NCBI GenBank assembly: GCA_905178155.1
Contig: CAJINV010000003.1
Span: forward strand, 4,747,863-4,811,862
Source of the DNA: Amoebophrya sp. A120
Taxonomy: Eukaryota > Protista > Dinoflagellata
Reading direction: 5' to 3'
Length of the DNA: 64,000 nucleotides
In this document: in pieces, positions 1-28,481 of the stretch
Position numbering within the stretch: position 1 is the first letter of the stretch
How the letters are laid out: every line of letters begins with the position of its first letter
Program-made: the position numbers and the translations under genes
The notes under the pieces: model-generated
What the model saw: only the letters and a program-made list of their open reading frames with translations
Database searches by the model: none
What the model was told of the DNA's origin: nothing

Positions 1-1533
1 CCCGCCCGCGAGTTTGTGTCTTTCTTTTCAATTTCATTTTGAGCTCGCGAGCGCATGTGCGAGCGCTTTAGTTTTTGGCTGTTCGAATCCTAACTCAAAC
101 TCAACTGCTCGAGGTATGCCGTTTTCGTCGCCGTGTGCTGGAGCCGGCCTATCAGCGCAATTCCAAATAGCCCGGCCGACCTTTGGGACGAGCGCGAAGG
201 TGGCAGTACAGCTTCTGTCTCTCTGGGGTGAAAACTGCATTGCTCTCTGGGGAGCGAAAGGAGGCGCATTGCTGCGCAAACACGGACTGCAAGGAGGGGC
301 AGCGCAGGTTGTCGGCGACGGAGTTGGGCTTGGGGCACACCAAAGACTTCTACGTCGGCGCTAGAAGTTTTGGCATGGCCACTGCGACGGGGGCTGCACG
401 GTCGGCGCTTTTTGTCGGTGGAGCACGAGCGGCTGCGGCACTTCCCATGCCATGTGTTTCCGGTGGATGAAAGCCCGATGCTCGCGAAGTCATGAGGAGC
501 GGGTACCAATAAGCCGAGGGCCAACATCAAGATCGAGAACAACTTGACACGGCAGCTGCGCGCGAGGACAGGCATTGGAATAACGGGGCGGAAGTCGCTG
601 CGCGTCCGTTTGAAGGCGGGACGCTTTCGGGATGGCCGCGCGGACAATTATTGCAGCCGGAGGCCGCAACGCGGCATTTTTTGGAAAAGTCAAGTGGGCT
701 CGTGCTGCGGATTTGTCTTGCGTGGCAACCAAGCAGGACCACGGGGCTGCAGCAAGAGCAAGCTAGGAACTACAAGTAGCAGTGCGAAGATGGATTAACA
801 TGCAAAGAGCATGAAACTGAGGGTGACCACGCCCGCAATTTCTGAATAGCGGAGCACTCAGACTCGTGCGCGATGTTACCTGGACTCGTGGTCGTGCGCG
901 ATGTTACCTAGCTTACCTAGAAAATTACGCGACAAAATTTCTCGGCTCTGAGTCTGCGCACGATCGAATGAGCTGAGGAGAAGAGCCTCGAGCTTGATTG
1001 GTAAGTATCAAAGGCTCTGCAGGTCGTGGCTCTTGATTTTCACTTATAGTTATAGCGATAGACATACGCGAGCTTCGTTGATCAAGAAGTTGAAGGAAAA
1101 AACAGGAAGCAGGCGACAAAGTGTTTACTTGCGCAAACGCAGTGCGTTCTTTCGCGCCTTGTCTCGGAAGCGTGGCGTGATCGATGTTCCCATCGTCGTC
1201 CTGTGTTGTTCGCGTCCACCGAGGCTCCGTACGACCGCGCTGTTGTTTGGTGACGAGGCTGAAAGTCATAACACGAGAACTGTCTCTTTGGCACGGAAAC
1301 GGAAGAGCAAACAAGATCCAATGTCTGGCCACGTTTGGGCACGAGTGCGCCCGTGTGCGAGTTCGCGTGGCGCGCTCGGTTTTAGCATGATCCGCCGTGC
1401 ACTTAAGCGGCTGGTTGGTAGACCGTGCCTCTTTGATGAAGTGGCTTCTTTGCGAGTCGAAGCCTAAATTTAAACGCAAACGCATTCGCTATCGATAGAT
1501 TGGATTTTAGTTTACAGTGCCAAGCTGATGCCT

Positions 1534-1544
1534 ATATAAAGCAC
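1534..1544 (+). promoter_or_regulatory. TATA-like motif ATATAAAGCAC (identical copy 8161-8171; variant ATTTAAAGCAC 21702-21712)
   Basis: Exact 11-mer upstream of the HhH-like gene and of the transposase ORF; function not shown. Confidence 0.25.
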
Positions 1545-1949
1545 GATGTCTTTATTTGTACTCGAGCCCTGTTTCCCTGGATTCCTAGGCTTTTACTTCT
1601 AGCTCTGAAATTAGTACTAGATGGCCAAAGTCTAAGTCAAAAGACAAAATCGAAAGCGCCACTCTGGCTATTCGGCTCCGCGAACGTCTCAGGGAAGGTT
1701 TTCCTCGCCCCCGCAGCTTCCTCCGCAACGAAGCCGGAGTCACGAAGCACCTCTTCAACATTCTTGGCGCGACATCAAACGAAGGGGCCGTCGGCAGCAA
1801 AACTAACCCGCCCCCCGAACCCGACCGGGTCGTCGTCGTGGCAGCCGCCCGTAGAACGAAGGCAACTCGCCATCGAGAAGAAGGGTCCGCGTGTTGCGTC
1901 GTTGCGCATACGACCCACGGCCCCAGGTGCAGCAAGCACACGCGGCGAA

Positions 1950-3301
1950 ATGGCGCAAGCAGCGGGGGAGGCCCTGAACGTCTTTTGGGCACCCAGAGGA
2001 CCATCGGACTACTGGTCCATTTTCCTTTTTGTTTCTGAGCGTTGGTGCAGGCACCTTCTGGCGTTGGAGGGAGAGGCAGCTGCTTCAACAAGTCCAAGCG
2101 CGACGTGCAAGATTTCTCTGATGCACAAGAGCGAGCTATTCGAAGCCGGTGACTACGCTTACGCAACTCTGTCGGTCACGGGCAGCCAGGTGGATGAGTG
2201 GATAAAGAACCACGGGAGAGCAGAAGGTGCGGCGTTTCTATTTTTTCTTCTTTTGCGCTCCGGCTACAGTCTCCTAGTGAAGCTTCTCTTTGGATTTTGC
2301 ATTGCAATATGTGGGTTTTGGGTTGATGAATGGCTTTCATGCTAGCAGAGCCCGGCCTAATATATGGTCGGCGAGAACAAGTAGAGGCTTTCCGTTTCAG
2401 TTTCAAACCCATCTTGGTCAGTTTGTGACTGCAGCCTCCCCCGGCCCAGTGCCAGTTCAAACGAATTCAAACCAACCGCATTCCAGGTAGCGACGATATT
2501 TCGCACAGGCGGTCCCGCCTCATCGTGCGCACCGCATCGACGAAGACGGACTGGGAGGACCGGTGCAGATCAACGCTGATCCTGGTTTACGAAATGTCGC
2601 CGCTTTTCCTCCATGACTTGGAGCAGGCTTTCCCCGGCACCGCGAAAATCCCCCAGGCAAAATTCCGGCAAGAAGCGAAGCGGTTGATGACTAAGGACGG
2701 CGCCGCGGCTCGATACTGGAAAAAAATGCAGTACTGGCGGTCGAAGGAGGACGATGTCTACCGGGAGAAAAGTCAGTCGGAGCTTTGGGGCAAGCTTGAG
2801 GACAACGTGCAGAAACTTCGGAAAACCGACGCGGGCGGCAGCCGAATGGACAAGACCGACCTGATGCGACACGCGGTAGATGCGTGCGGTGTTTGGAGCG
2901 CCAGCAAAATGGTGTTGTGGATGCAGCACAGCTACAGAACCACGCTGGGGGAAGGCGAGAGGATGCCCCACTGCCTCGCTTTGGGCGTCAAGGCCCCGCT
3001 CTGTTTTGGGGGAGGACCGAGGCGGACGCTGAACCTTCTGTACAACAAGAACTACCCGAACCTGAACTGCGCGGTGACAAAAAAACGGACGGACCTGAGG
3101 TATTTTAGCGATATGGGCCACAACTTCGTGAGCGCCATCCGGGCGGCAATGCGGGGGACCAAGTGTCCGAACATGGAGCGGGTTTACGGGTTTAACGGGA
3201 AGGCGGACGCGCGGGACCGGCTGCTTCTCACCAGCTACTGGTGCGAATTCAGCCGATGTTACCGCCACCTGCTGGCGTCGGCCCGGTCGGCGCCGCAGTA
3301 G
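1950..3301 (+). CDS. HhH-glycosylase-derived protein resembling the 5-hmdU DNA kinase helical domain (aGPT-Pplase1 family); exons ~1950-2226 and 2487-3301
   Basis: GT(2227)..AG(2486) intron joins ORF 1500..2345 to ORF 2525..3301 in frame. Motifs in family order: FLFVSERW; YAYATLSVTGSQVDEWI; HhH-like DACGVWSASKM; FGGGPRRTLNLL; YWCEFSRCY. Start codon uncertain. Confidence 0.55.
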
Positions 3302-4424
3302 TTTCGTCGCGTCCCCCCGATTCCCGCCCGCCCCGCAGACCCAGACCAGCAGCCGCGACCTCCGTTCTTCGTTTGCCCCGATAAGTAGCCGGAAAACGGG
3401 AATTGGCGGCGTGAACACCTCCAAACCAGCTGGCCACCGCGTTTGGCGAGCGCGTGACGCAGCTTCGCAAAAATCACGCTGGGGTCGGAACTTCCTTGAA
3501 GGGTGCAAGCAGGACGCGACGGAGTGGCTCCGCGGGCTCGCGCGTGTTGGTTGTCGTGCAGGTTTCACGACCGGGCGGGGGATGAGGTTTTTTTTTGAAG
3601 ACAGAGACTGGCTCGGATTCAGATAAGTGATAGCGAGTAAAAGTATGCAACTATGGCAAAGAATGACGAATTACAGCGAGAGGCTGGGGCAATGATAGAT
3701 GATGTTGACGCGAATCGAATGAAGAAGGTAAAAGCTGGCGAAGAAGTTATGAGCACTACGCGCAGAAATTTTGACTCAAGTCAAGCAGTTACTCAGTGCA
3801 ATTTAGCACATGGAAATGATAGATGATGAAAAAAGAAAACATGACGACGGAAGAAGCTGGCGCTTCATTTTGGGCGCCCCCAGGTCGTGTTCACTCCGCT
3901 GGATGACCGACCAGAAATAGACCTGGTCGGAGACGCAAGAGGAGGAGACTCTTGCGCCACAGAGTCCAACAGTGTCGGGCCTCTAGCTCGCAATCGCACG
4001 CCCGGTACCGGGATCATACGCCCTGCGCGCTGCGTTTGGTTTGGAGCAGTCGCGCAAGCCGGCCGCCGGCAATCAAGCACTCGCGTGGGCACGGCTGTTG
4101 CCCTCCGGCGTGGTCGCATGGGGCACGCAACTCGTGTCGGGCTGGCCGTGGACGCAGCGCGAGGTGGTTCCCCCGCAGCGAGTTGGCCACGAGGGCAGCG
4201 CGAACTGTGTCGGGGCCGCATGGGCGCAGCAGCATGCGTGCGAGCCTCAGAGCCGCAGCTGGCGGAGCGCGAGAGGCCGCACAGCATCGCGCTCCGCATC
4301 GTGAGCGCCACAAAGCCTGGAGTTTTGGTCTAGCAGTAGCAGTGTTTTGCTACCGCCGGCAGTATCGCGTCAATCGAGCCGCATCCGCTGGCGCGCTGAC
4401 GGCTGGCAAAGAAAATGAACAGCG

Positions 4425-4469
4425 CCAAGCATAGTCTCGCCCTGTAACGACAGTTACACGAGCGGACTG
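4425..4469 (+). repeat. Palindrome family copy 1 (core TGTAAC-GACA-GTTACA, 4443-4458)
   Basis: 41/45 identical to 18931-18975 in direct orientation. Confidence 0.9.
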
Positions 4470-5816
4470 TGTTTTTTTGATCCGGAGCATCTTCATTGTG
4501 CCGCCCACCTACTGGCCGGAGGGGAGATGGATAGCCGAAATCAATAAGGTAAAGACCATCGGCCCGGCTCTGCTCGAAGTTGAGCGGGAGAGAGACAGAG
4601 ACCAGGAGTGGGCTGGAGCTTCCTTCTATATCCACACGCGCGTGCGCTTTTGCGTTAAGCTTAACAAGACTAAATCTAAATCTAAATGTAAAACTCTTGC
4701 GCGAGTTTCGGTCTTGCTGGTTAGCGTCTAGTTGTGAGTCTGAAACAGAAATTGAAATAAAGATGAGCAGAATTATCGCCGCGCAGCCGTACTGGAAACA
4801 GTCAGGCGGCGATAAACCGAGGCCCGGGCCGCCACAGAGTAGCGTCACCGCTGTCGGCTTGTCGCGGGTCAAGTTTTTCCAGCAGCAGACCCCGCCGATC
4901 CACCTCCGCATGAAGAAGCTGAAGAACGGCCCTACGCCACTGGCCTCGCAGCGGAATTCCCACGTTGTTAAAAACCCCGGGTCGGCGAGTCCTTTTCACA
5001 CTGATGATCTCTGCGGGGCCTTTACTTCCCCTGCTCCGAGCGACTATCACTCCCCGCGGTCCGAGTTTTGGGATTTCAACTGCCCGCTGATAGGTAACTT
5101 CCCAAGTTTCAGCGTGTCCCGCCAGCCACCGAGGCTGATGAATCTAGCCGGATACCGAATCTGCACGCAAATACGAGCAGGCGAGCCCGCTTTTCAAGAT
5201 TTGGCAGCAGCTGGGCCCGTGCGGGGGTATTGGAGCCTATCTGAAACAAAATCGCACCCATTTCACCATGCGCTGCGGTAGTTCAAACTGGTCATGCCGT
5301 ATGAAACAAAACAGGCATCGCAAAACCGCGGCGATGATCTGTTCGAGTTCTGCGTCCAAACTGATTATAAAGTTTGGGCGAAGGACAAGCACCAGTACGA
5401 GTAGCACTAATCTCGCGCATTTGGCTTGGTGGGGGTGCCTTTTTGTTTTGCATACAGCCGATCGCACCGCGACACTGCTGGGCGGGCCGTTCCCCGCCAG
5501 CGCAGGAGGAAGAACAGTGAGAAGAAGGCGGGATCCCCTTTCCGAGTAGCGCAAAGTCCTGAGCCCGGGGCTTCCACGCAACAAGAGCATCGTACTGGTG
5601 GTGACGCGGGAGGAACGTTTGCTGCGAAGGCGTTGGAGGAGAAGCTTTTGAGCCCCGCAATAGCAAGTCGCAGCTTCAGCGATGTTCGTGCTCCGGCTGC
5701 TGGCGTCGACTTGTGGATTGACAGCCCGGATCTTCTACCGCTCGGAGCAACAGCAGCAGCTTATTGGGCCTCGCCGGCTGTAGAAGAAGCAGCGAAGCGT
5801 CCTTGCGCCGATAGCA

Positions 5817-6851
5817 GTGCCGGGAAAGCTCCTGTGCGCGACGTCGTGGGCCGCTCGGATGCGAATCGAGTCGAAAGCGAGTCCTATTATCATGGGCACG
5901 CGAGGAGGAAGAGCTTGGGGCCGCACATTGGGACAAGTCAACTTCAAGGGTTTTGCTGTGACGTGGGAGCACGGCGCCGAAAGGTGGACAGGTACAGACT
6001 ACCTCAAGTTGTAGTTCGTGCGCAAATTATACCAGACCACACAATCTACAAACGCGCTTTAGTGTCAAAGTCAATAGCTTTCGAGTTTGCATGCCCTAGA
6101 AGCAATAGACCCATGCTCAGCCTGTGCTGTTTTATCTGCTTGGATTTTGCATGCGCTTAGTTTCGCTTTTTAAGCCTCTGCACGCCGCCACGTGCAGGAT
6201 AGATGATGACGGTGATGATGTATGTTCGGCGTATGACTGCGTGCTGGTTTTTTTACTTCCAAATTAAAAGGATGCGTCGGCGGGTGTGCTGCAGCCACCT
6301 CTCCCCGCAGGCACGACGGGCAGCGCAGATCAAAAGCGAAACGCCATGAGCGGAGGGCCGCTGTTCTGCTGCGAGTGGGCCCGCTTCTAATCGCAGGCAA
6401 GTGGAAGGCTTTGAGCTCCCATCGCCCCTCAATGACCATCAGGTTTTGCGACGACAAGGCCGCCAGGCTGGACTTCGGGTTGCCAGCATTCGCGCTTGCC
6501 TCGGAATCCGATGCGCATGGGGAAGAAACAGTTTCGAAACAGCCCACCGAGACGCGCGGCGCCTGCGGTTACAGTACAGGACTGGGCCCATTCTCCCGAG
6601 CGGATCGCGCGCCTGATTGCAGCGACTGGAACCTCATCTCCGAGAAGGAGCAGCAGGACGCGCTGGTTCTTTTTCACGAGGATGTACGGAGGCAGGTCAA
6701 GGAGCACCGCGGAGAGCTGTCCGCCGTCGCCTGCAAATGCCCAGCCACCCCCAGGAAGCCGGGCAAGCGAAAGAAGAGAACAGTGTGCCGGTGCTACGAT
6801 GCATTCAATTCCGAACTCGCTGAGCTGGAGCGGGTAGAAAACCTCCTCAAG
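5817..6851 (+). CDS. Possible spliced hypothetical gene fragment (Cys/basic C-terminal part)
   Basis: ORF 5817..6014 frame can join ORF 6375..6893 through a GT(~5992)..AG(~6579) intron; GT donor after ...ENLLK. No recognisable domain. Confidence 0.25.
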
Positions 6852-6945
6852 GTGCGGCGGTGCCGGTTGCGGGCTACCGGTGTTGATGTGTGACGTGGAT
6901 CGAGTGGCCCGGCCCCGCATGTGGAGGAGTGGGATGGGAGCTGGA

Positions 6946-6975
6946 GTGCGCTCGTGTAACGAGCGTTACACGACC
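6946..6975 (-). repeat. Palindrome family copy 2 (core TGTAAC-GAGC-GTTACA, 6955-6970)
   Basis: Reverse complement is 27/30 identical to 15731-15760. Confidence 0.9.
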
Positions 6976-8342
6976 GGAATAGGTTTTCGCAAAGTAAGCA
7001 CAAGTAGAAGATTTGTGTCCATACAGATACATGCTCTGACGCGCCGACTAGTAACGCGGTGCCCTCTGGACGATGGCCGTTCCAGGGGGTGAGTGCATCT
7101 ACATGCAAAGAAACGAGTGAGCAGCAACAGTGCTTCATGCTTTTTAGTCGATGTTTCAGCGAAGGTTCGAAATACCTTCGCTCAGATGTGGCGCGAGTCG
7201 CAATCATAGTTAGTAGTGCTTGACCCCCATCATGTGGATTTCAAAAAAAAAGTTAGTTCGAACGCCCCGAGTAAGTCGCCATAGTTGAAAACGTACGTAC
7301 CCGCGTGTGAGTATTTTTGTACACATGCAAACGAACCGATGGCGATGCCGAAGCTACGCCTGTAGATGGAGGCGGAACTACACAGAAGGCGCGCGCTCTT
7401 CTGTGCAAGTGCTTTCCCCGCAACGTACTACCGGAGTGCGCTCATAAACGTGGCGCATCGTGTTCAGCCAGAAAGCTTCCTGCTATGGGGGTCACGCTCC
7501 GTGTGCATCTTGGAATTGTGGCGATGTTTCGAATAGATAAGCAAAAGCAAGCTCCTTCAAACTCCGAGCCAAGAAGTTCTGAAGTTGAGAAACCATCAAG
7601 CTCGCCTTGTTCCCGTGCTATGGTGGAAAAACAGATCCTGCAACGTTCGCAAAGGACGAAGATGAGAGTTTTTTTCTTCTCTGTTCGGGTTGCGCGGTTG
7701 TTGGGGGGAAGAGGTGACTTTTCTTCTCTCAACACCGACGACGCGCTTCGTTTTTCTGTATCTTTACGAACTCACACAGCACGCCTGGTCCCCACCTATT
7801 TCGGTTGATTTAGACTTTACAAGGCAAGGAAAAAGCAGGAAGTGTGCCAATTTTTCTGCTTCTTTTCCTACTCGCCTTGTCCCCATCTAAAAATGAATAT
7901 TTGCAATAATCAGAGATGCTTTTTTAATGCTCCACGCAGCGCGATCTACGTTTTATTTCTTTTCGTTGAACTAGTCTTTGATCTGCGCGGCGCTAAAAAG
8001 ATTAAAGATGGAAGGAGGAAGGAAGCCACTGCGGAGGAGCCAGAAATAAAGTACAAAGTATCTCTTTTGCTGCATGTGGTGCGAGCGTGGTAAGCGCGGA
8101 AAAGCATTATTACACATAGTGATGCGTCTGGTGTATGCAGTGCAGGCGGGGTAAGCGCCAATATAAAGCACTCAGTAATGGAATGAATTTTTAGCATAGC
8201 GCGTTAGTCAAAAGGATGGCAAAGAAATAAAGCAATAACAAAAACTGCAGGTAAGCACGAAGGGCGAGGGAGTGGGAATCCCCTCCGGCCGCAGCGAGTA
8301 GGAACTGGAAACGGAGATCCCCCTGGTAGTGGGGCGAAGGAG

Positions 8343-11300
8343 TTGAGCTCAAGTCTCCTCCTCAAGGAAGCAGCCGAACGTGGTGGAGAAGGAGACACTG
8401 CGAGGCGCGGGGGTGGTCGGGGGCGACAGAAATTTTACGGCGCTGACGGAACGAAAACCGAGTACGGGAAAAATCGCAGCAAAGGAGCTTTACGTAGCAG
8501 GGGGCGCCCCCCCTGTCCACTACTATTGGCAAAGCAAACTGGGACTTCGGGAGTTCGAGCTGCGCAGCTTACGGGCATGTCTACACGTGGCGGCACGCGG
8601 CGATCATCGTCAGGGTGCAGCTGGCACTCAGAAAAATCGGGTGGACCACGAAAGCCATCGCGCCTCGCGCGCAGAGATGTTCTTGCCGACTCTGTTACGC
8701 CCGCAGCTGGCCGCCGGCGCTCTGCGGGCCCTGGACACAAGCAGCGACGGCCAAGAAACCACATTCGGGCCTTGATATCGGATAGTGACGACGCGGCCCG
8801 GAGTAGAGAAGAAACAGCGGCGGACGATTCGCCATTCGCGCGAGGAGAGCGCGAGGAGCGGTTGCTGCTCGGCCTAAACCCTGCTTTGGCAAAGCAGGAT
8901 GGCGGTGGCGCGAAATCCTTCCCCGCGCGGAGCGCCGCTGCCAGCTCCGGAAATCCGCCAGGACCTCGAGCAGGCCGTGCCCAAAAGATTGGTTGCAGAG
9001 GGAGGACCTGTTTCTCTTCGAACCCGCCGGCCCGCCGGAAAAGCCGGCGCCCCTGGTGGAGGCGGAGTGTATCCTTGAGCAGTGTGACCAGCAGCAGCAG
9101 CGGGGCGGCTACTTCCGTTGCTCATAGTTCCCGCGCGTCGCGGACAAGCATTCCGACATCCTCCGGCGAGGATGCGCGCGTTTTGGCAGCTACGAATCGA
9201 GAGAAGTTGGCGTCGCAAACAAACAAATTCTTTTCCAATGTCTACCCAGGTACGAACGCGGAGAAAATGCATCACCGCCGGGTTGCTGCTGTTTTGCCGC
9301 AGGCTTACGCCCGCAAACTTGCGAAGGAAGTCCAGACCTTTTGGAGACACGGGGCGACGCCAATAGTGCGCTGCGAGTTCGATTGCACGGACTTTGGCTG
9401 CTTACTCCCGTCGCCGCTGAAGCGCTCCCGGCAGGGACGGAGGGGGCGAGCACGACTGCGGAGGCGCAAGCAAGGAGGCCAGGTCGTGTTAGATACCTCG
9501 ACGAAGTGGATTGTCGCTCTCCTTTCTGTGCAAGGTGTCGATAATCGGGCGGAAGGAATGACGCTCACGCCGCGCGTCGCATTTCCTCTTCCCGGCCATG
9601 TCCTACCGGGTCAGCCACGCAGGCGGCAGGATGAAGCACCGGTGGTAAAGCTCCCCGGCCACGAGGCGGGGAAGGTGGTCAGTGTCTTGCTTCATGACCT
9701 GTACCCGATTCTCCGCGCGCTTTTTGATCTCCCGCTCGCGCAGGCATCGGCGAAGTATGGCGCTCTCGATGTCAGGCGGTTGATCGTCGACTTGTGCTCC
9801 GATAGTGGCGGATCCACGGTCCCCTGCCAGCGTCTGATGCTCCGGGCCCTGCGACAGTGGAAATCCACGTGTGATTACCCCGTTCTCCTCCTCACGAATT
9901 TCTGCCGCGAACACCCCGCCCAAACTTTGCAGAAAGAGGCCACGCTGGATGTGCAGCTTCGGCTTTTGCCAAATCCAGCAATGAAGAAGGGCGGCGCATC
10001 CGGTTTTGCAGGTGGACAGGCAAGCGCCCGAGGCGATACCTCCGGGCAGGCCACCGAATTTCTTGCAGGACCGGAGGGTGCCGGCCCCGAAACAGCTCCG
10101 GGCGCAGATGAGAACATGGGCACGGAGGCGGGGGCTTTTGGCGCGGCGGCGAAAGAAGTAGAGCAGGACATTGGTGTGCCAGGAGCCGACGGTCTTGACG
10201 ACCTCCGCATTTATGATATCCTGCACAAGCGCGACAACGGCGGGAACGCTTTGAAAAGCAGCGACGAAATCCGAGAGCGGGCAGAGATTCACGCGAAACA
10301 GGTTGCGAAGAAAAAAAAGCGGTACTTTTTGACCTATTCTTATGCCTTTAATCGCCTGGTGAATTTCAACCGGCGGTCCTTCTTGGAGGCGATAAATAAC
10401 AGCAGACCAGTGGTGGTTGCGGCGGACCAAGCCGCACAGGAGCGCTACAAGTTCGCGCTAGACCGCACGCATTCACTCCTGCGGTTCCATCGGGTTCTCG
10501 CTGCCGGCGACGACGAGCCCTGCTTCGCGTTTTGCTGTGGTGACGTCCTGGTTCTGGAGGCCGGTGAGGACGAGTACCGGGCGCGTGAGTTTTTGCAGAA
10601 TGTGCTCCAAACCGCGCGGCCGGTTTCGGAGACGCGGTGGTGGACGGTGCAGGATAACGCGAAACAGGCTTTGGGGTACGGCTGCCTCCGCGGTTGTCTG
10701 CAGGGCGTGCGGGTCGGCGATGTGCATGTTGGGAACGGTGAGTTCACACCGACGGACTTTTTTGTTGGTGTTTCGACGAGCGCTTCCTGTGACTACCCGG
10801 TTCTGGCCCATGCTCTGCTGCTGGTGACCGGCGCTCCATCTTGCCTCTCCTGCAAGGTGTACAAACATGCCATCCGCGAGAACGTTGTCTTCAATCCGAG
10901 CGTCGTCGCTTCCGATCGTTGGGACGAAATGCTATCCAAGTTCTGCGCCGTTGCCGAAGCCTCCGTCAAGCGGTCCTGCCCGTGCGAGTTCTTTTGTGAC
11001 GTTTGGATAATTTCAGCGGGTGCACACGGGGCGGCGCGGTATCATGAGCCAGTACGAATGCACGCAGTTGTGGGGATTTTCAAGAGCCTCGCCGGGTATT
11101 TTTGGAGATTTGAGCAGCAAGAGGCGGCCGAGTCTTTCCTACGTCGTTTCGCCAAGAAAACGCGGCTTCTTGAGCCGGATCAGCGCCTGAAGCATCTAGA
11201 CAAGCTCCTGCGGAAGGTGGACAAGGTCGAGCAAAAACACCGCACGAAAATCATCTCCCTCGCGGAGATGGAGCTGCTCAGGGATCTGAAGGCCGTGGCC

Positions 11301-14201
11301 TGTCCCTCCATGCGGTTGCTGTTGGTTGACGCGCTTGTTTGCTACACCTCCGTCTGCGACGACACATCGATCTGGGTTGAGTGGTTTCATTGCTTTTTGC
11401 AGCAAACGCAGAAAATTAACTCCACCTGGAAGGGCGCCTTTCTCGTCAACGCGCTCGCGAGTGCGCGGTTCGCTGCGGCTAGTGTGTCCACTGCCGATCG
11501 CGAAAAAATGTGGCGGCTGCGACGCCGCGCGGAGAACCTTAACAAGGAGCGAACACGGGCTGAGGTCAGCCAGTCCCAGTTTGCCGCCGAAATTGGAACG
11601 GAGCACAGGGACCGGCAGACGGTGCAGAATGCGTACGCGAAGCTTTATCGAGTTTGCTTTGCAGATGGGAGGGCAGAAGAGCGGGCGGCCTACGATCGGC
11701 AGCGACTTTTTCCAGAGCTGGTCGCGCAGTGGCTCCAAGGGGCTGCGGCCATGTGCTTGGCCGAGATAGAAGAGATCGATCTGGAGCTGAAGGACATCGA
11801 GGACCAGATTAGCAAGACATCCTACGACATCCTGCGGAAAGCCCCGCAGGCGGAGTTCTGGGAAGATTTGCGCACCCTGGTCGTCGAGGAAGCCGGGCGA
11901 GTGAGCTACCGGGGTATTCGCAGCAGCGAGCCGGAGCTGGTGGTCACAGGGGAGAATCCGGTCATGACCTTGATCGATACGGACTTGCAGGCAACAGTCA
12001 TGGACTCGGGGGCCCCGGACTTGGCTTCGGATATTGGCAAATTGGTTACAAGGGTGGCGCAGCACTACAAGCAGGCGTTCGGAGCTGGGGCGTTGCGTTG
12101 GCCCTGGTTATTGATTTTGGAGTTCCAAAACGACTGGTATGGCATCGTTTGGAGAATCGAGAAGCCGTCCGGGTTTGTCGCCATTCGCCTGTGCCGCGCC
12201 ACCGAGCGCGAATTCGATCTCCTGGAATTTGATTTCTCGCCCGCATCAGTATCTTCTTCAGTGTTGTGCAGCTATGACCGTCGTCTGGAAGATCCTGCGC
12301 TTTGGACTTTATTCGTGGCCGGCCGTGTAGTAGCGGGCGAAGCGGAGTACGAGCAGATGGAGAGCGCCCTGGCGCAATTCCTCGAGGGCCAGATTACTAG
12401 GACCGAGCTCACGAGCCGTCTTGCGCAGGCGGGGGGCAGCAGACTGGGCGTCCGGCTGGAGGACGTGCAGGAGGTGGACTTGCTCGGTTACTACACGAAG
12501 GAGCAAAAGCGTGAGCTTGGCCTCCTGCCGGGGCGAAAGCGAAGGGGCAAAAGGCGGCAGGCGGGGCGCAAAAGGGTTCGGGCGAACAAAGTGACGATAG
12601 TGCAGGCTCTGGACCTCCAGAATGAACTGAATGTCTGCAGTGCTTTGGCGTACATCCAGGCCCGTCGGCATTACAAACGCCGGGGGCTCTACCAGAGACT
12701 TGCCATGAAGCAGCGAGCCAGGGATGGTCGACGCGCGCGGGAACTTGCGGAGCGGTTTCGCCCGTTGCAGCAAGGCAGCCCAGTAGCTGGTGTGCAAGAT
12801 CAGGCCGGCTCTCCCACGGGGGAGTCTTGCCTTGCCGGCCTGTCGCAGCTGGAGTCGGCCTCTACCGGAGGCGCGCCAGCAAGCCGCACTGGCGCAGAGT
12901 TACCAGGAGCACGCAGCAACAAAGGCTTGGGGCAGGTAGTCCATGATGGCGAAGGCAGTAGAAAGCAGGAGCTTGCCGCGACTTTGTTATCGGCCGATGG
13001 CAAGGGCGCTCCGGTGGTTCTCGACCCTGTAACGGGCCTGCCGACCCTGACCGAGGGCAGCCCCGGTGGCCAAGAGCAAGAAAGCCAGCTGGCCTACCAC
13101 GGGAGGTCCCCAGACCTCCGCGCACCGAGCCCGGTAAGCGATGACTCGGTAAGCAACGTGTGGGACCCAGTGGACATCGAGGGTGGCCTCGTTTCCCCGG
13201 GAAGGCTGCGAGATTGTTTCGAGCCCGAGCGGTTTGACGCCGTCTTGGAGCGTTACGTGAAAACCGGGAAAAGCAGCCAAAACGACCCCGCTTTGAGTAG
13301 TAATGGAAAAGCGCGGCGCCCGGCCCCGGGGAGCGAAGAGAACGGGGCCGGCGGCGGGGCAGCCCGCGAGGCGCAGAGCGGACCTGTTGGCGCAGCGCTA
13401 CCGGCCGGCAACGGGTTGCAAGAACATCGTCGCAGCGGCCCGCGCAGTCGGAAGGAGCGTCGCAGCCCAAACAAGCACCAGTTAGATGATTCCGAGCAGA
13501 GAAGGTTCCGAATTCAGATCCGGCGGGAGCAGAATCTTCAGCAGATGGATGGGGTCGGCATGGGCGACTTCGAAATAGTCCGCATCGGTTCCGCGCGGGA
13601 GTATAAGAAAACGGAGGGGCGGTCGGGCTCGAATCTGCTTATCGCGCGGATCCGCCCGGGGCAGCACGGGGTCGGCGCCGAAGCAATCAAATTCAGCAGA
13701 CTCTTCGACGAGAACGAGATGGTGGCGGCTATGAGCCTGTTCGTGTGCCAGCTGCACGGCCGCCAGAAGCAGCGAAGCTACCAGGCTGACACCCCGGGGT
13801 CATTCGAGGCGGCGCACTCTTACCTGAAGCTCTGGATAGCGCGGACGCGTTTCATGCTCTACCACTACGTGGACGGCGCGGCAATGAACTGCTACCGCGA
13901 CAAATTTGCCGCTGCAAAGGCCGCCGGCGGCTCGTCGGCTTTCAAAGATAACAGAACCGCGGCAACCGAGGTAGCGTTTCGCGCTTGGATTGGGGGCGCG
14001 CTCGAGGCCGCACTCGAAGCCGACCGAAAGACGCAGCAGGAGAAGGATAAGGGGCGGGGCGCGGCGACAAAGAGCTCCCGGCCGGGCGAGCACAGCGGCA
14101 GGCCGGAGGACCGGACGCTGCTGCAGATACAGGAGCTGGAAAAATTGTATGCCCCCGGCCGCTTTGTCGGACTGGTTTCCCCGGTTCCGCTTGAGATTTG
14201 A
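8343..14201 (+). CDS. Very large DDE transposase-like protein (hAT-like), 1952 aa
   Basis: Uninterrupted 5.9-kb ORF. Ordered motifs: EFD347CT, LCSD487SGGS, C521REH524 (CxxH), T764RW, TSIWVE1013WFH, matching the hAT D-D-CxxH-(T)RW-E arrangement. The true start may be the ATG near 8577. Confidence 0.65.
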   Translation: MSSSLLLKEAAERGGEGDTARRGGGRGRQKFYGADGTKTEYGKNRSKGALRSRGRPPCPLLLAKQTGTSGVRAAQLTGMSTRGGTRRSSSGCSWHSEKSGGPRKPSRLARRDVLADSVTPAAGRRRSAGPGHKQRRPRNHIRALISDSDDAARSREETAADDSPFARGEREERLLLGLNPALAKQDGGGAKSFPARSAAASSGNPPGPRAGRAQKIGCRGRTCFSSNPPARRKSRRPWWRRSVSLSSVTSSSSGAATSVAHSSRASRTSIPTSSGEDARVLAATNREKLASQTNKFFSNVYPGTNAEKMHHRRVAAVLPQAYARKLAKEVQTFWRHGATPIVRCEFDCTDFGCLLPSPLKRSRQGRRGRARLRRRKQGGQVVLDTSTKWIVALLSVQGVDNRAEGMTLTPRVAFPLPGHVLPGQPRRRQDEAPVVKLPGHEAGKVVSVLLHDLYPILRALFDLPLAQASAKYGALDVRRLIVDLCSDSGGSTVPCQRLMLRALRQWKSTCDYPVLLLTNFCREHPAQTLQKEATLDVQLRLLPNPAMKKGGASGFAGGQASARGDTSGQATEFLAGPEGAGPETAPGADENMGTEAGAFGAAAKEVEQDIGVPGADGLDDLRIYDILHKRDNGGNALKSSDEIRERAEIHAKQVAKKKKRYFLTYSYAFNRLVNFNRRSFLEAINNSRPVVVAADQAAQERYKFALDRTHSLLRFHRVLAAGDDEPCFAFCCGDVLVLEAGEDEYRAREFLQNVLQTARPVSETRWWTVQDNAKQALGYGCLRGCLQGVRVGDVHVGNGEFTPTDFFVGVSTSASCDYPVLAHALLLVTGAPSCLSCKVYKHAIRENVVFNPSVVASDRWDEMLSKFCAVAEASVKRSCPCEFFCDVWIISAGAHGAARYHEPVRMHAVVGIFKSLAGYFWRFEQQEAAESFLRRFAKKTRLLEPDQRLKHLDKLLRKVDKVEQKHRTKIISLAEMELLRDLKAVACPSMRLLLVDALVCYTSVCDDTSIWVEWFHCFLQQTQKINSTWKGAFLVNALASARFAAASVSTADREKMWRLRRRAENLNKERTRAEVSQSQFAAEIGTEHRDRQTVQNAYAKLYRVCFADGRAEERAAYDRQRLFPELVAQWLQGAAAMCLAEIEEIDLELKDIEDQISKTSYDILRKAPQAEFWEDLRTLVVEEAGRVSYRGIRSSEPELVVTGENPVMTLIDTDLQATVMDSGAPDLASDIGKLVTRVAQHYKQAFGAGALRWPWLLILEFQNDWYGIVWRIEKPSGFVAIRLCRATEREFDLLEFDFSPASVSSSVLCSYDRRLEDPALWTLFVAGRVVAGEAEYEQMESALAQFLEGQITRTELTSRLAQAGGSRLGVRLEDVQEVDLLGYYTKEQKRELGLLPGRKRRGKRRQAGRKRVRANKVTIVQALDLQNELNVCSALAYIQARRHYKRRGLYQRLAMKQRARDGRRARELAERFRPLQQGSPVAGVQDQAGSPTGESCLAGLSQLESASTGGAPASRTGAELPGARSNKGLGQVVHDGEGSRKQELAATLLSADGKGAPVVLDPVTGLPTLTEGSPGGQEQESQLAYHGRSPDLRAPSPVSDDSVSNVWDPVDIEGGLVSPGRLRDCFEPERFDAVLERYVKTGKSSQNDPALSSNGKARRPAPGSEENGAGGGAAREAQSGPVGAALPAGNGLQEHRRSGPRSRKERRSPNKHQLDDSEQRRFRIQIRREQNLQQMDGVGMGDFEIVRIGSAREYKKTEGRSGSNLLIARIRPGQHGVGAEAIKFSRLFDENEMVAAMSLFVCQLHGRQKQRSYQADTPGSFEAAHSYLKLWIARTRFMLYHYVDGAAMNCYRDKFAAAKAAGGSSAFKDNRTAATEVAFRAWIGGALEAALEADRKTQQEKDKGRGAATKSSRPGEHSGRPEDRTLLQIQELEKLYAPGRFVGLVSPVPLEI

Positions 14202-14860
14202 CGCGTTTCGATGCCGACTGTCTCGGGCTAGGTGGCTGCTTCACATCTTCTCTCGCGACCGTCGGTTAGGCGGAGTGGCCGACCTTTTGGCGCTGAAGAC
14301 CTCGCCGCATCCGCGCGTGGGCCGTGGCAGTGGATATTCTCTGCTTGCATGGGGGCGCGCGAGGCCGCTGTGGCGGCGGTTTTCGTAGGTAATAGCTAGC
14401 CCCTTTCTATTGCCCTGTTTAGCACTTGTTTTTAACTTAGGGCTAGGCTCGCGCACGCGTGCGTTCATCAGACAAACCCGCGAAAAAGTCGCGGCTTCAT
14501 TTCGTGGTGCAAATGCAAGGCCCCACGAGCTTGTCCCGTGTTGTTCTGGACGAATTTGCCTTTCCAGAAAGAAAAGAGCCGCAAAAAAATGAAAAATATC
14601 AGGCGAAGCAGGAACCTTCGGCGCACGCTTGGGAAAGGCAGGGCAACAGGTTTCCGGCTGCTTGCCTAGTTCAACGCCTAACCGCCAGACAGGCAGAGCA
14701 GCAGCAGCGACTTTGGCAGCGGCGCAGCGGTTGCGTGCCTGTTTTCGATTGCCAGAAAACGAGGATAGCGTGCGGAATAGCCGCGGATTGAAGCTTTTGC
14801 CAGATCTTGGCCAAAGTAGAGGATACCGTGCGGGAAAGCGGCGGCTAAAGCTCGTCCCAG

Positions 14861-15086
14861 AACTTGGTCAAAAACTTGCAAAAAACCTGTTTCAGAACTT
14901 GCTCAGTCCGTGACGGTAGAGCCGCAAAAGTTTCGCCCAGACTTCGCGAATCCGCATGCTACGGCCAATACAAACCTCCGCACATTTTGCCGCAATTCCG
15001 GGGAAATTGCAGTGACTGTGCAAGTTCCGCGTCAACTTCTTGGACAAGTTTTTTCCCGAGCTTTCTGCCAAGTCTTGGACCTAGTT
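14861..15086. repeat. Two oppositely oriented ~12-bp-period arrays (AACTTG-like 14861-14901; CAAGTT-like 15021-15086)
   Basis: CAAGTT/CAACTT/CAAGTT/CGAGCT/CAAGTC/CTAGTT at 15021, 15033, 15045, 15057, 15069, 15081; reverse-complement units at 14861, 14873, 14884, 14896. Confidence 0.7.
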
Positions 15087-15730
15087 TGAGTTCCGGCGGA
15101 CAGCGGCCCCCCGGAACCCTACCCGCGAATGTTACTCCTGCCGGGCCGAGCCCAGGTAGCTTCAGGCGGAATTTGGTGGTCTTTTTCCGTGCAAAGAAAT
15201 TCGAGTTGTGTTGCCGGGTGGCGGGCCGGCGCGTCGCCGTTTCGGTTTCCCGGGGGCGCCGTGCGCGAAGATGCCCTGGAGTAGCATCTATCACATGGAG
15301 GCCGCCACGACCAAACCGATTGACGCAGGACGCAGCACTCTTAGGGCCGTGGCGACCTCGCGTCGCAAGAGGCATGCCACGAGAATACGGAGGTGCGTAG
15401 CTCTGCCGCCCTCCCGAGCAAGGCAACGGGCGTAAGGAAGCACGGGCGAGTGTGGTGGTGCCCGCGTTCCAAGGGCCTGCCCTCGGTTGGCTGCAAAGTG
15501 GGCTAAGTTTTGATAGTGCGGCCTGCTGTCTGATGTAGCGGGCGCAGACGAAGACAAGACCACAGAATCTAAATCGCGAAACAAGTGCAACAGCTGCGCG
15601 ACTCTGGCGTAGCCTCCGCCGGGTGTGGTCAGTGGTCCTCTGGCCGGCCGATAGATCAAGACTGATATAGGAACTCAAGAGAACAACCTCGGCACGTAGC
15701 TAAGTAACAGTAAGCAAGTAGAAAGAAACA

Positions 15731-15760
15731 GGTCGAGTAACGGCCGTTACACGAGCGCAC
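15731..15760 (+). repeat. Palindrome family copy 3 (core AGTAAC-GGCC-GTTACA)
   Basis: Inverted partner of 6946-6975. Confidence 0.9.
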
Positions 15761-16599
15761 GGGGTTGCGTGTCTGAAGGACGAAAGTGTCTGTTCGGACG
15801 ATCTGTTTTTTTGTGCCGCAGCGCAGAGCTGCATCGCGATAATTGAAGCTGAAGGCCGCCGCTGATAAACACGAGAATTAGAGAACAGAAGCAAGAAGGC
15901 GCTTCATGTGGTTTCTTCGGTTTCCGGTTGTGTTTCTTCTTGTTGTCGTTCCACATTTTTTTCTCTCCAGAAGGAAGAACGAATGGCGAGCCCGTCGAGG
16001 TGAGGTGCTTTTTTTTTGTGACGTGCCGTGCGCGAGCACACCAGCCACAGCTACAGAAGTGCGCCGCTGCTCCCCGCTCTGGATTTCTATGCCACGCTTG
16101 AAGCGATAAGTATCGACAAAACAGAGTCCAGGGCGAAAGCTCCTCCGGTATAACTTCGCGATAGGCGCGGCCAGCTCGTTTTTTTTTTCTTCTTGTCGCT
16201 CCTAGATCCGTAGTTCGTTGTGCAGATTTTTTTAGTGTGTTTCCTGATTTACATACAGATCAAGATCATCTCTAGTGCATAGCCCTTTCGACTATCTCTA
16301 ACTATATTTCTTTAGTGCAGATCTACAAGATGAGATGCGCAATCTCGGTCAATCACTGCGACACAGCAAGACGCTTGGAGTTTTAATATGGTGCGCATAA
16401 TGAAAGAATTGCGACTGACTTCTAGAATTGCGATTTACTTCTAGACTCTAGAAACACTGATAGACATACACGGACGGCCTTTTTGTCATTTTGAGCCAAG
16501 CAGTAGCAGTTCGGTGGCTGCGCCCGGCGATAGTAGCTGCTCGCCCCGGTACCAGTCCAAGGTGGTCAGCTCGCCCGCTCACTCACCGGCACTACAAGA

Positions 16600-19500
16600 A
16601 TGGGCGGCGGCAACAAGATGGGGAAGAAAAACGCGGTGAAGAAAGGCGTGGGGGTGAGCGCGAAGATGCAGAAAGCGCGTCGCAGGAGCTATAGCAACTC
16701 GGACGAATCTGACAGCGACGATGTTCTGCGTAACTCCCCGAAGCGGCGGGGCCGCAACGGGAAGAAGAAGAAAACCTGGGGCAAGAAGCTGGAGAAACGT
16801 ACCATCATAGTCCGCCTTGCTCCTTTAAAAAAATAGACGTTCGCGCTTCGCTATTCTAGACGTCGTTCGTCATGTGCATGCTGATACTTTCGTGCGAGCC
16901 TTGTGCTCTATTGCCACGACGAGCATACACATCGATGGTGTAGATTCTAATTTTTTCGCGCCTTAGACCGAAGAGCTTGCTGCTTCACACAAAAAACTTC
17001 AGTTTACGCCGCCTGCGGTTTCTCGCCGTCCCCGCGGAAAAACAAGGAGTACTACACCACGCGCATGACGAAGTTGAAAAAATTGGTCTTCGATGAAGGC
17101 GAGGACGTCTGTGATGTGGTGCGGGAAGGTGTCCCTCATGACAACCCCGCTGTCCATGATCTGCAGGTCGGAGTTGTGGAAACTGACGCGGATGTCGCGC
17201 TCTTGAATTCGTACCACCAAGCCCCTGACTTTTTGAAGGCCTTCTTGGATGATGCCGCGGGCAGTCCGGGAGCAGCAGTGCTGGGTGATGGAAACAAGAT
17301 GGAAAAAACGCAGGTACATTGGGCTACGCTTTTTCTCTCATGCAAAAAATTTAGGACTTCCTATCTTTGCTTTTGCATGCCTTTAGCGTTGGGCATTGTG
17401 TGGTCTAGATTCTCGGACCAGCCAGATTCTGCGATCTAGGGGCGAGATAGTGGCTCGGCTTCAGAACCCATGAAAAACCACCAAGCCAGGTGCTCACCTG
17501 GTGCTTGCAAATTGAAACTAATACGCAGGTGCGTGGCGAGATCCTGATTTCTCGCTCGGCAGAATATGCGAAGATTTTGGGTCGCCTTCGGGAGATAATT
17601 ATCCGCGTGAACCCGGAGTTGGAAGAAGAGGAACCGATTGCATTTTACCAGAGGTGGGGAAGCATCGACATCCGCACCGAAGCGGGGAAGGAAAAGCAGA
17701 ACAAAGTAATCGGAAAGTGGGTCGGGCGGGCGATCGCTATCTACCTGCGTGGAAAAAGTTGGGACGACGTTCCCCTGGCGCTCGCGTCGCTCCGCGACCT
17801 CTGCAGGTTCAATGACGAGGCCTGGCAGCTTTACTACCTCACCGCCGTGGGTAACATTAGCGCCCGAAAAGCGGTGTCGGAGGTGTACAGCAAGGAGTTT
17901 GTCGACCAGTTCAGACCGAGCAGGCACATCAGCAAGCACGCTACAGATGGGGCGGATTCCCTGCCGAACATCGCCTGGGCCCTCTATGACGGTGTGCGCA
18001 AATTGGTACAGAAGTTTTCATATAGAATTATCGCCCCCTTTTCTACTGTTTCCTCCTTCGTATGTTTTCATTCTATTCGGCCTCTGCGCCACCTCGCTAG
18101 CGAAGATGCGTCATGGAGTACGTAGCACTGCGCATGCAAAAAAGCTTGCGCTTGAGTGCGGACGCGATCGAATCGATTTGCAAACTCAATCGAACAGCTG
18201 CAGGCGTCGGTGGCGAAAGAAAAAGAGACCGAGCGTCTGAAAGCTGTTGTCGAATCGTGGAAGAACGACACCACAACCCCCGAGCACTTCCGTAGCATGA
18301 CCCTCCGTGAGCTGTTGCGGGCAATGTTCCTGTTCTGGAGAGGGAAGGAGGACTCTCTGCTGCGGCACCTTCTCGACAAGCAGTTAGATTTTACCGGTGT
18401 AGTGGCTTTCACGCCAAAGCATTACTATGGTGTTTTGGAGAAATTGAAGAAGTTCGCCCTGCCAAACAAGGTGGTTACCTGCCCGCTGACCCTGCTCCTG
18501 TACTGTTACGGCCCGGGCATGGAGAACTTTAAGGAGAAGAGCGGAGCAAACATAGAAAATGAATCAGAAATCCCGAAACTCGTGTGCGAGGAGTTTCGGC
18601 ACTACCTGGACCGCGTGCTTGCCTGTCTGCGTCAAATCGTCGAAGCTTTTGCGAAGGCTGCGAAGGATGGGGCCAGTGGTTTGGCGGAGTATAGTCTTGG
18701 TAGTTTCGATTTTTTCCGAAGTAGTGTGGGTCCTTAGCTTTGGTTGATATAGATGGTAGAAAGTAAGGATGCACACTATCAAAGCCTGCTGAGGGATCTG
18801 CGGGCCTTCTAGCCCCCGCGGCGATTTTCGATGAGCGGCGGCAGGCTCAGACGTTGTTTGGGATTCCCGTCCTAGATGGCGCCAGCGCCAACCCCTTCCG
18901 CAATGAAATGATCTGCGACGAGCGACGCCACCAAGCAGAGCCTCGCCCTGTAACGCCCGTTACACGAGCGGACTGCGATTCGGAATTGCCGGTGGGACGT
19001 GTCACGCACATGGTGAAAGGCCCGTCTGCGAGCGCAATTCTTTTCAAAATGTATTACAGGATGAAGGACGAGTTGCGATTTCTGTCGGACTTCCAAGTGG
19101 CGGCGGCCAACGTCCGGCGCTTACCGGTCCCAGACCCTGAGTCCAAGCAGACCATTCTCTGGATCAAACAGATGAAAGTGCTGGAGTTCGTAATTCAGAA
19201 CGCGCTCTTCTATTGCGAGGAGGACCGGCAGCCCGAGTGCTCGACGAAGGTGAAGGAGTCTGCTCACCGTTGCCGCCTGTTGCTGCCCGCAATGGAGTGG
19301 CATTTGGACACCGATGATTTTTGGCTTTTGAAGCCCCTCGTGGATGTCCAGGTATTTTCTACACGTGCACCCAGTTGCTTCAGCCGTTGGGCTTTTGTTG
19401 CGCAGCTTCTGTCTGCGCTTGTTCCTTCTGTTTGCGTGTCGCTTGGAAAAGGGCGTCGCGTTTTGGTATTGCGCACTCTTTATGTAGAGCGACGCTCGGT

Positions 19501-28454: not shown

Positions 28455-28481
28455 GTCCGCCCGTGTAACGCTCGTTACAGG
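28455..28481 (-). repeat. Palindrome family copy 7 (core TGTAAC-GCTC-GTTACA, 28464-28479)
   Basis: Reverse complement CCTGTAACGAGCGTTACACGGGCGGAC matches copies 1 and 4. Confidence 0.9.

What the first reader, a model, noticed from the sequence alone, without database searches (positions are those of the whole stretch)
1950..3301. Spliced eukaryotic gene resembling the phage 5-hmdU DNA kinase helical (aGPT-Pplase1) domain, with altered conserved residues
Joining exons across 2227-2486 gives motifs in the order and spacing I recall for this family: FxxER; YxFxNxxRxxDxxxxWI (here YAYATLSVTGSQVDEWI); HhH GxGxFxA (here ACGVWSA); GPGxxxGL (here GGGPRRTL); LCExxKY (here WCEFSRCY). The N, R and D positions read T, V and S. 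Inference: changed chemistry, or a non-catalytic reader of modified thymine. The ORF track splits this gene in two.
Basis: partly seen in the sequence, partly recalled or inferred. Interest (0 to 1): 0.75.

Follow-up and report, generated by a model that had tools for sequence, protein, structure and literature searches.

The report
Protist relative of phage thymine modifiers
A two-exon gene of a dinoflagellate-related marine parasite encodes a protein that is likely a very distant relative of the enzymes phages use to decorate thymine in their DNA, and it would more likely bind modified thymine than run the phage reaction.

Summary
The gene is there: ATG 1950, a GT-AG gap at 2227-2486, stop 3301, 363 aa. 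Both exons match, in order, its only relative found, a 932-aa Amoebophrya sp. A120 protein (P0001). No read tested the junction. The family call is likely but unproven. Pfam, PHROGs, HMM, HHalign, glocal and fold searches gave nothing significant, though HHalign barely links the known clades and both models were unusable (pLDDT under 40). The signal lies in exon 2 (HhH, GP, CE blocks); the exon-1 'N/R/D' block scores below zero, so those altered residues rest on an unsupported register. New here: P0001 has lost the conserved Cys and ends in a TET/JBP-like dioxygenase domain. Best reading: a diverged aGPT-Pplase-fold DNA-binding module tied to thymine hydroxylation, likely a reader. Homology about 0.7; reader role about 0.4. 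The scan noted this family before in two other protist genomes.

The parts
1950..2226 (+). Exon 1 (codons 1-92 plus one base). The start codon is inferred; the frame is open from 1440.
   Evidence: Matches P0001 residues ~28-131; ORF list
2227..2486 (+). Predicted 260-nt GT-AG intron, AG|GT at both ends; not confirmed by RNA
   Evidence: Restores the frame; stops in 3 of 3 frames, lower GC; no read test
2487..3301 (+). Exon 2, to the stop codon; carries all the well-supported family-like blocks
   Evidence: phmmer E 8.6e-9 to P0001 among 1.84 billion proteins; GC3 0.79
2028..2045 (+). FVSERW, placed on the family's N-terminal F..ER block (weak)
   Evidence: +5.1 bits alone, -1.0 for the pair
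2154..2204 (+).
   Evidence: -1.7 bits alone, -6.7 for the pair
2555..2620 (+). Helix best conserved with P0001; falls on the family's LWF..AR.INWP block, without its R (98%) and N (97%)
   Evidence: Same register found separately for P0001; +2.2 bits for the pair
2882..2923 (+). Predicted helix-hairpin-helix block (ACGVWSASKM); G and A kept, F to W, helix Asp (99%) lost
   Evidence: +5.2 bits alone, +8.5 for the pair
3008..3043 (+). GGGPRRTLNLLY, matching GPGxxRGLNxL of clade 1 and GPKRGAKLLF of clade 3
   Evidence: +16.1 bits, the strongest block; also picked by the clade-1 and clade-3 HMMs
3236..3262 (+). YWCEFSRCY, matching LCEFDKY; Cys345 and Glu346 kept, Lys (98%) is Arg; P0001 has Gly-Glu
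   Evidence: +7.0 bits alone, +11.3 for the pair; the only segment HHalign aligns
2256..2308 (.). 52-nt piece inside the intron, 44 of 52 alike to an abundant RNA from another locus
   Evidence: 629 reads in X3 and contigs in X6-X8 with the same 8 differences

Best explanation
The locus is a single-copy two-exon gene whose 363-aa helical product is likely a far-diverged member of the aGPT-Pplase (helix-hairpin-helix, glycosylase-like) superfamily and would act as a DNA-binding reader of hydroxymethylated thymine rather than as the phage amino acid:DNA transferase. Shown: the reading frame, homology to P0001, the ordered motif series, and a TET/JBP-like motif set at the end of P0001. Inferred: splicing; the HhH fold; that the HhH and GP blocks grip the backbone and the pocket around Cys345-Glu346 holds a flipped pyrimidine (by analogy with HhH glycosylases, general knowledge). 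Also inferred: in P0001 this module would steer the fused Fe(II)/2-oxoglutarate dioxygenase to DNA that already carries the mark, as the J-binding domain does for JBP1, while the window's stand-alone copy would bind such DNA alone or with a separate dioxygenase. That this lineage has 5hmU is assumed from core dinoflagellates; I found no measurement.
For: Scores of 28-32 bits are reached by 0 of 489 slices of 332 bacterial proteins, 0 of 50 window-ORF slices, 0-1 of 1500 shuffles and 1 of 800 block shuffles, and by 0-2 of 2000-6000 column-permuted decoy profiles. (2) Independent check: P0001 searched alone lands four blocks on the homologous positions. Its residues in those columns score +9.3 and +11.9 bits; simulated homologs of equal identity reach that with P 0.001-0.014, and the best 2% of decoys in 0 of 120, 2 of 120, 0 of 80 and 0 of 80 cases. 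(3) The three supported blocks are the ones clades 1, 2 and 3 share with each other. Two of three spacings lie in the family range. (4) P0001 residues 710-870 carry H720-x-D722, H855 and R865 in four ordered blocks matching 12 phage Tet_JBP proteins: 37.3 bits, reached by 0 of 500 shuffles and 0 of 500 decoys. (5) Dinoflagellate 5hmU is made on DNA by TET/JBP homologs with HxD and H...R (PMC11572971); phage aGPT-Pplase genes occur near TET genes (PMC8256090). (6) For a reader: most invariant polar residues of clade 1 are missing, and P0001 lacks the Cys. Charge is basic, 55 K+R against 40 D+E.
Against: No hit in Pfam, PHROGs, NCBIfam or PADLOC. My clade-1 HMM gives only 0.5-2 bits (pairwise E 0.006-0.017) and nothing for P0001. 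Glocal alignment gives Z about 1.4, with P0001 below the null mean. HHalign probability is 0.8, below at least 10 of 60 shuffles. The best single-member score is 78, against 79 for the reversed protein. P0001 alone is not significant in the block test (Z 0.5-1.3). Blocks and slack were chosen after I saw the motifs, and the per-family P would not survive 25,000 families. The HhH-to-GP spacing is 43, against 27-36 in 54 of 86 family members measured. The TET-like call on P0001 is motif-level: Pfam and a full HMM miss it. The window has no TET-like partner. The window protein keeps Cys and Glu, which fits an enzyme as well. Two papers on dinoflagellate 5hmU never mention Amoebophrya.
Confidence: 0.42

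Rival explanations
1. Same superfamily, but an active enzyme. Cys345 would attack C6 of 5hmU or its phosphate ester, as clade-2 amino acid:DNA transferases do, and either add a new group (a eukaryotic thymine hypermodification) or resolve the methylene back to thymine.
For: Cys345 and Glu346 are kept and align with the LC motif common to all three clades. A Cys and a nearby Glu are essential in clade 2, and borohydride trapping gives thymidine (PMC8989533). That this is the same Cys is my inference from alignment.
Against: The Glu four residues before the Cys in clades 2 and 3 is Thr here. The N, R, D and K invariants of clade 1 are missing. P0001 has Gly at the Cys. No activity was shown for clade 1 in the passages read. 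No P-loop kinase family was hit among the 23 window ORFs scanned.
Confidence: 0.2
2. Chance resemblance: a fast-evolving, lineage-specific helical protein unrelated to aGPT-Pplases, whose Gly-, Pro- and Cys-containing stretches mimic three short motifs.
For: All standard profile and structure searches were negative or uninformative. Per-family P of 1e-4 to 7e-3 is reachable when thousands of families are recalled. About 60% of Amoebophrya proteins have no assigned function (PMC7789003).
Against: P0001 was not used to choose the family, yet keeps family-type residues in the same columns. Its fused domain belongs to the same biochemical theme. HHalign also fails on true clade pairs (probability 2.1 for clade 1 vs 2; 30-32 against clade 3).
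Confidence: 0.27
3. A true but decaying or silent relative: a truncated copy of a P0001-type fusion gene, possibly cargo of a mobile element, interrupted by the 260-nt insert and no longer functional.
For: No transcript seen. It lacks the dioxygenase of P0001. The neighbours on the same strand have no family hits. The intron holds a piece shared with another locus. TET/JBP genes ride on DNA transposons in fungi (PMC12730594, listing only).
Against: Both exons are free of stops and frameshifts over 363 codons. The gap has canonical ends that restore the frame. GC3 of 0.79 is at least as high as in other window genes (0.57-0.73). No second copy lies in the window.
Confidence: 0.11

Closest known systems
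aGPT-Pplase clade 1 = Pfam PF18723 HMUDK_hel (phage M6 gp55, PhiW-14 gp72)
   Same: Ordered HhH, GP..L and CE blocks; similar domain length; Cys-Glu pair kept in the window protein
   Different: No Pfam score; invariant N, R, D, R, N, D and K missing or changed; about 10 extra residues before the GP block; spliced nuclear gene; no kinase or dUMP hydroxymethylase neighbour found
Amino acid:DNA transferase, aGPT-Pplase clade 2 (M6 gp51, ViI gp247)
   Same: Shares the HhH and LC core with clade 1; the window protein has a Cys at the aligned place
   Different: No score against a 30-member profile; the Glu before the Cys is Thr; needs a 5-hmdU kinase that was not seen here
aGPT-Pplase clade 3 (PF18746)
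   Same: The GPKRGAKLLF block resembles GPRRTLNLLY
   Different: No significant score against an 11-member profile; no F.(N/H)HR.YE motif
P0001, Amoebophrya sp. A120 protein CAD7972674.1 (932 aa)
   Same: 25% identical over 303 residues, across both exons
   Different: Has Gly at the Cys, a long low-complexity linker and a C-terminal TET/JBP-like domain; ortholog or paralog not settled
Kinetoplastid JBP1 (thymidine hydroxylase plus J-DNA-binding domain)
   Same: Functional analogy only: a modified-thymine reader joined to a TET/JBP hydroxylase (abstract openings)
   Different: No homology of the reader domain was tested or is claimed

Membership tests
HMUDK_hel / aGPT-Pplase1 (PF18723) | Pfam score above the 25-bit cut-off | tested here: not met
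   0 families at E<=10 for either exon; P0001 no hit; the joined protein was scored only against my own 86-member HMM, 1.2 bits
HMUDK_hel / aGPT-Pplase1 (PF18723) | FCNxxRxxD motif (N, R, D 99% each in 86 members) | tested here: not met
   Best placement reads T, V, S and scores -1.7 bits
HMUDK_hel / aGPT-Pplase1 (PF18723) | LCExDKY motif | tested here: inconclusive
   C and E kept, K to R in the window protein; G-E in P0001
aGPT-Pplase superfamily (clades 1-3) | Ordered HhH, GP..L and (L/W)C blocks shared by the clades | tested here: met
   28.3 bits, reached by 0 of 489 real slices; homolog corroboration P 0.006-0.014 for these three blocks; blocks chosen after the fact
aGPT-Pplase superfamily (clades 1-3) | HhH-glycosylase-like fold | tested here: inconclusive
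   Models at pLDDT 38.4 and 36.5; fold searches meaningless; no solved clade-1 relative by sequence
aGPT-Pplase superfamily (clades 1-3) | Profile-profile match | tested here: inconclusive
   HHalign 0.1-0.8; positive controls only 2.1-32
Amino acid:DNA transferase (clade 2) | Catalytic Cys with neighbouring Glu, and profile match | tested here: not met
   No profile score; Cys present, upstream Glu is Thr
Amino acid:DNA transferase (clade 2) | Group transfer to 5-PmdU DNA | not testable with these tools
   Needs an enzyme assay
Phage thymidine hypermodification cluster | Linked 5-hmdU DNA kinase and source of 5hmU | tested here: inconclusive
   None among the 23 window ORFs scanned; no whole genome held
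TET/JBP dioxygenase (P0001 C-terminal domain only) | HxD...H...R in double-stranded beta-helix order | tested here: met
   H720, D722, H855, R865; 37.3 bits vs 0 of 500 and 0 of 500 nulls; Pfam and full HMM miss it; does not separate TET/JBP from other 2OG-Fe(II) enzymes
Spliced gene | Reads across the junction | tested here: inconclusive
   No exon coverage in 6 RNA-labelled runs; the organism is not shown well in them

The most novel reading that the evidence does not exclude
Syndinian parasites have turned a phage thymine-hypermodification fold into a nuclear reader of 5-hydroxymethyluracil, present both stand-alone (this gene) and fused to a TET/JBP-type thymine hydroxylase (P0001). That would give the dinoflagellate lineage a JBP1-like read-and-write module for maintaining 5hmU, built from a different reader fold; no reader for this base was named in the passages I read.
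Probability: 0.27. Interest if true: 0.82.

Novelty: new variant of a known kind. Interest (0 to 1): 0.5.

Why it matters
Dinoflagellate DNA carries large amounts of 5hmU. The writer was identified in 2024 (PMC11572971), but the passages I read name no protein that reads or further processes the base. A eukaryotic aGPT-Pplase-fold protein, and a relative that fuses it to a TET/JBP-like dioxygenase, give two concrete candidates for a binding assay and a reason to measure modified thymines in Syndiniales. Searches for this link in print found nothing: aGPT-Pplase1 + eukaryotes, 0 papers; HMUDK + dinoflagellate, 0; no title on it. The paper that defined the family (Iyer et al. 2013) was not held and may list eukaryotic members.

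Tried and rejected
Family libraries: Pfam, PHROGs, NCBIfam and PADLOC gave no relevant hit for either exon or P0001. More relatives: none by word-index search, ESM Atlas (best TM 0.27), phage tblastn, or pattern scans of viral and metagenome contigs. A search for long, possibly eukaryotic clade-1 proteins gave 2 prokaryotic-type hits, so my profiles hold no eukaryotic member. Structure: two AlphaFold jobs on 2-3 sequences failed. Four fold searches gave nothing usable; the one E<0.001 row had TM 0.05. PDB sequence searches were blank. Glocal Viterbi, HHalign and pairwise tests were not significant. RNA: no RNA holder listed; X3-X5 gave 0 reads at 95%; at 80% X3 matched only the intron piece; no test of expression. 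Pfam Tet_JBP rang in 0 of 401 genomes and 0 of 50 records, so I used a 12-sequence phage set instead. A TATA-like 9-mer at 1535 and 8162 is not enriched (9 matches, 8.2 expected). Rfam found nothing in 1-8500. My first guess that the intron piece is a cox1 fragment was recalled, not tested, and is weakened because the C-terminal cox1 parts are nuclear in Amoebophrya. A motif search of that paper's supplement found nothing, but long rows are probably cut, so it is inconclusive. Rejected: that the domain is itself a kinase; that exon 1 strengthens the family call.

Full report
Setting. No whole genome is held for the window. It is eukaryotic: long ORFs include a Ulp1 protease, IQ-motif and TPR proteins, one window protein is on record in NCBI and EukProt, and the long ORFs sit largely on the + strand up to about 26 kb and on the - strand beyond 32 kb. 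The gene's only relative is named Amoebophrya sp. A120, so I treat the organism as Amoebophrya-like (Syndiniales); this is an inference.

Gene model. ATG 1950, exon 1 to 2226, GT...AG gap 2227-2486 and exon 2 to the stop at 3299-3301 give 363 codons. The gap has 2, 3 and 3 stops in its frames and 48.5% GC; exon 2 has GC 0.54/0.46/0.79 by codon position. Exon 2 found 1 protein at E<=0.001 among 1.84 billion representatives, P0001 (E 8.6e-9). P0001 also matches exon 1, in order (sum E 3e-18; joined protein 77 of 303 identical, E 1e-26), and weak similarity runs on to the CE block. The two ORFs are therefore one gene. The exact junction is not fixed by homology (6th-7th of 92 possible joins), although 2486 is the only in-frame AG for the GT at 2227 before the conserved block. 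RNA gave no test: 0 reads in X3-X5, and at 80% likeness nothing on the exons in X3 or X6-X8.

Standard family tests failed. Pfam, PHROGs, NCBIfam and PADLOC gave nothing relevant. I built profiles of clade 1 (86 representatives under 70% identity, from 192 domains), clade 2 (30) and clade 3 (11), all phage or bacterial. The clade-1 HMM gave exon 2 just 2.0 bits (pairwise E 0.006), aligned at the HhH and GP blocks, and P0001 nothing. Glocal alignment scored -63.9 against shuffles at -74.3 +/- 7.4. HHalign gave probability 0.8. The same HHalign gave 2.1 for clade 1 vs clade 2 and 30-32 against clade 3, so it is nearly blind at this distance. AlphaFold on 2-3 sequences gave pLDDT 38.4 and 36.5, so the fold searches say nothing either way.

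Ordered-block test. I scored seven ungapped conserved blocks of the clade-1 profile in order, with limited spacing slack. It was reached by 0 of 489 slices of 332 bacterial proteins, 0 of 50 window-ORF slices, 0-1 of 1500 shuffles and 1 of 800 block shuffles; Gumbel P was 9e-5 to 7e-3. Column-permuted decoy profiles reached it 0-2 times in 2000-6000. That alone would not survive a choice among thousands of families.

Alone it is not significant (Z 0.5-1.3), but four blocks land on the homologous positions. Its residues in the window's motif columns score +9.3 (three blocks) and +11.9 bits (four). Simulated homologs of equal identity reach that with P 0.001-0.014. The best 2% of decoys average -17 to -24 and reach it in 0 of 120, 2 of 120, 0 of 80 and 0 of 80 cases; those decoys score lower on the window protein than the real profile, which flatters this comparison somewhat. 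The three supported blocks are the ones the known clades share with each other. Spacings: FCN to HhH 156 (family 123-196), GP to Cys 75 (52-94), HhH to GP 43 (27-36, and 42 in P0001), from 54 of 86 members measured. Blocks and slack were chosen after seeing the motifs. I put superfamily homology at about 0.7.

What is altered. In the supported part, the helix Asp (99%), the second Gly of GPG and the Lys (98%) are changed; Cys345 and Glu346 are kept; P0001 has Gly-Glu there. In clade 2 a Cys and a nearby Glu are essential and act through a methylene intermediate, while the M6 clade-1 protein gp55 was not needed for the transfer step (PMC8989533, passages). That this is the same Cys is my inference.

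The homolog's second domain. P0001 residues 710-870 hold H720-x-D722, a GG.L strand, about 100 inserted residues, H855 and R865. The best BLAST segment against mycobacteriophage Cooper gp2 (Pfam Tet_JBP E 4e-6) aligns the H...R part (E 0.16). A four-block test with 12 such proteins gave 37.3 bits, reached by 0 of 500 shuffles and 0 of 500 decoys; the slack for the insertion was set by eye, and Pfam and the full HMM miss the domain. No such domain lies in the window. Dinoflagellate 5hmU is made on DNA by TET/JBP homologs with these motifs (PMC11572971, passages), and phage aGPT-Pplase genes occur with TET genes (PMC8256090, one passage). Neither that paper nor PMC11071213 (passages) mentions Amoebophrya, so 5hmU in this lineage is assumed.

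Mechanism. The most economical reading is a glycosylase-like HhH module that binds DNA and senses a modified thymine. It has lost most of the invariant polar set, tolerates loss of the Cys in its relative, and is joined there to a predicted hydroxylase, which suits a reader in the manner of JBP1 (abstract openings only). I give this 0.42; an active Cys enzyme 0.20; chance resemblance 0.27; a decaying copy 0.11. It should not be filed as PF18723: the score and the FCN motif tests were not met.

Prior work. Two earlier notes of this scan report this family in other protist genomes; I did not check them and they are not independent support. None covers this sequence or place. Iyer et al. 2013 was not held, so what it says about eukaryotic members is unseen. 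PMC7789003 was read as passages; PMC8136515 as the first of three parts plus a supplement search; PMC12730594 as a listing only. The supplements of PMC8989533 and PMC11572971, which hold alignments and trees that may bear on residue identity and on Syndiniales homologs, were not opened.

Verdict. A real gene, likely spliced; a probable but unproven new variant of the aGPT-Pplase superfamily; its most interesting feature is the TET/JBP-like fusion in its only relative. Interest 0.5.

Noticed in passing
window 2256-2308: A 52-nt piece of the intron is 44 of 52 alike to an abundant RNA with AT-rich flanks: 629 raw reads in X3 and contigs of up to 1850 nt in X6-X8, all with the same 8 differences. 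No second copy in the window, no Rfam hit. A mitochondrial or other organellar insert is possible; unexplained.
   Followed up: partly
P0001 residues 710-870: Unannotated TET/JBP-like Fe(II)/2OG dioxygenase motif set with an insertion of about 100 residues in Amoebophrya A120 protein CAD7972674.1; a candidate thymine hydroxylase for Syndiniales.
   Followed up: partly
window 4425-4469, 18931-18975, 6955-6987, 15737-15766, 28455-28481: A short dispersed repeat with a palindromic core (45 nt at 91% between the first two copies); possibly the end of a small mobile or introner-type element.
   Followed up: no
window 8208-25708: A run of + strand ORFs (1997, 735, 278, 273, 224, 193 and 186 aa) with no credible family hit in the libraries tried, unlike the - strand half of the window; it could be an inserted element or a block of orphan genes.
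   Followed up: partly
window 1530-1544 and 8157-8171: Near-identical 15-mers with a TATA-like core upstream of this gene's open frame and of the 1997-aa ORF; the 9-mer is not enriched in the window.
   Followed up: partly
window 7586-7635, 7854-7906, 8349-8422: Short pieces matched by contigs of X6 and X7 from other loci, one as a 52-base tandem return; likely repeats.
   Followed up: no
window 44698-44818: Imperfect inverted repeat of about 120 nt (73%) at the edge of methyltransferase-like ORFs; it may be a hairpin-type non-canonical intron.
   Followed up: no
L251 and L252: Clade-3 aGPT-Pplase genes in two bacterial genomes lie between a thymidylate-synthase-like gene and an HTH/metallopeptidase-like gene (read by eye).
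   Followed up: no
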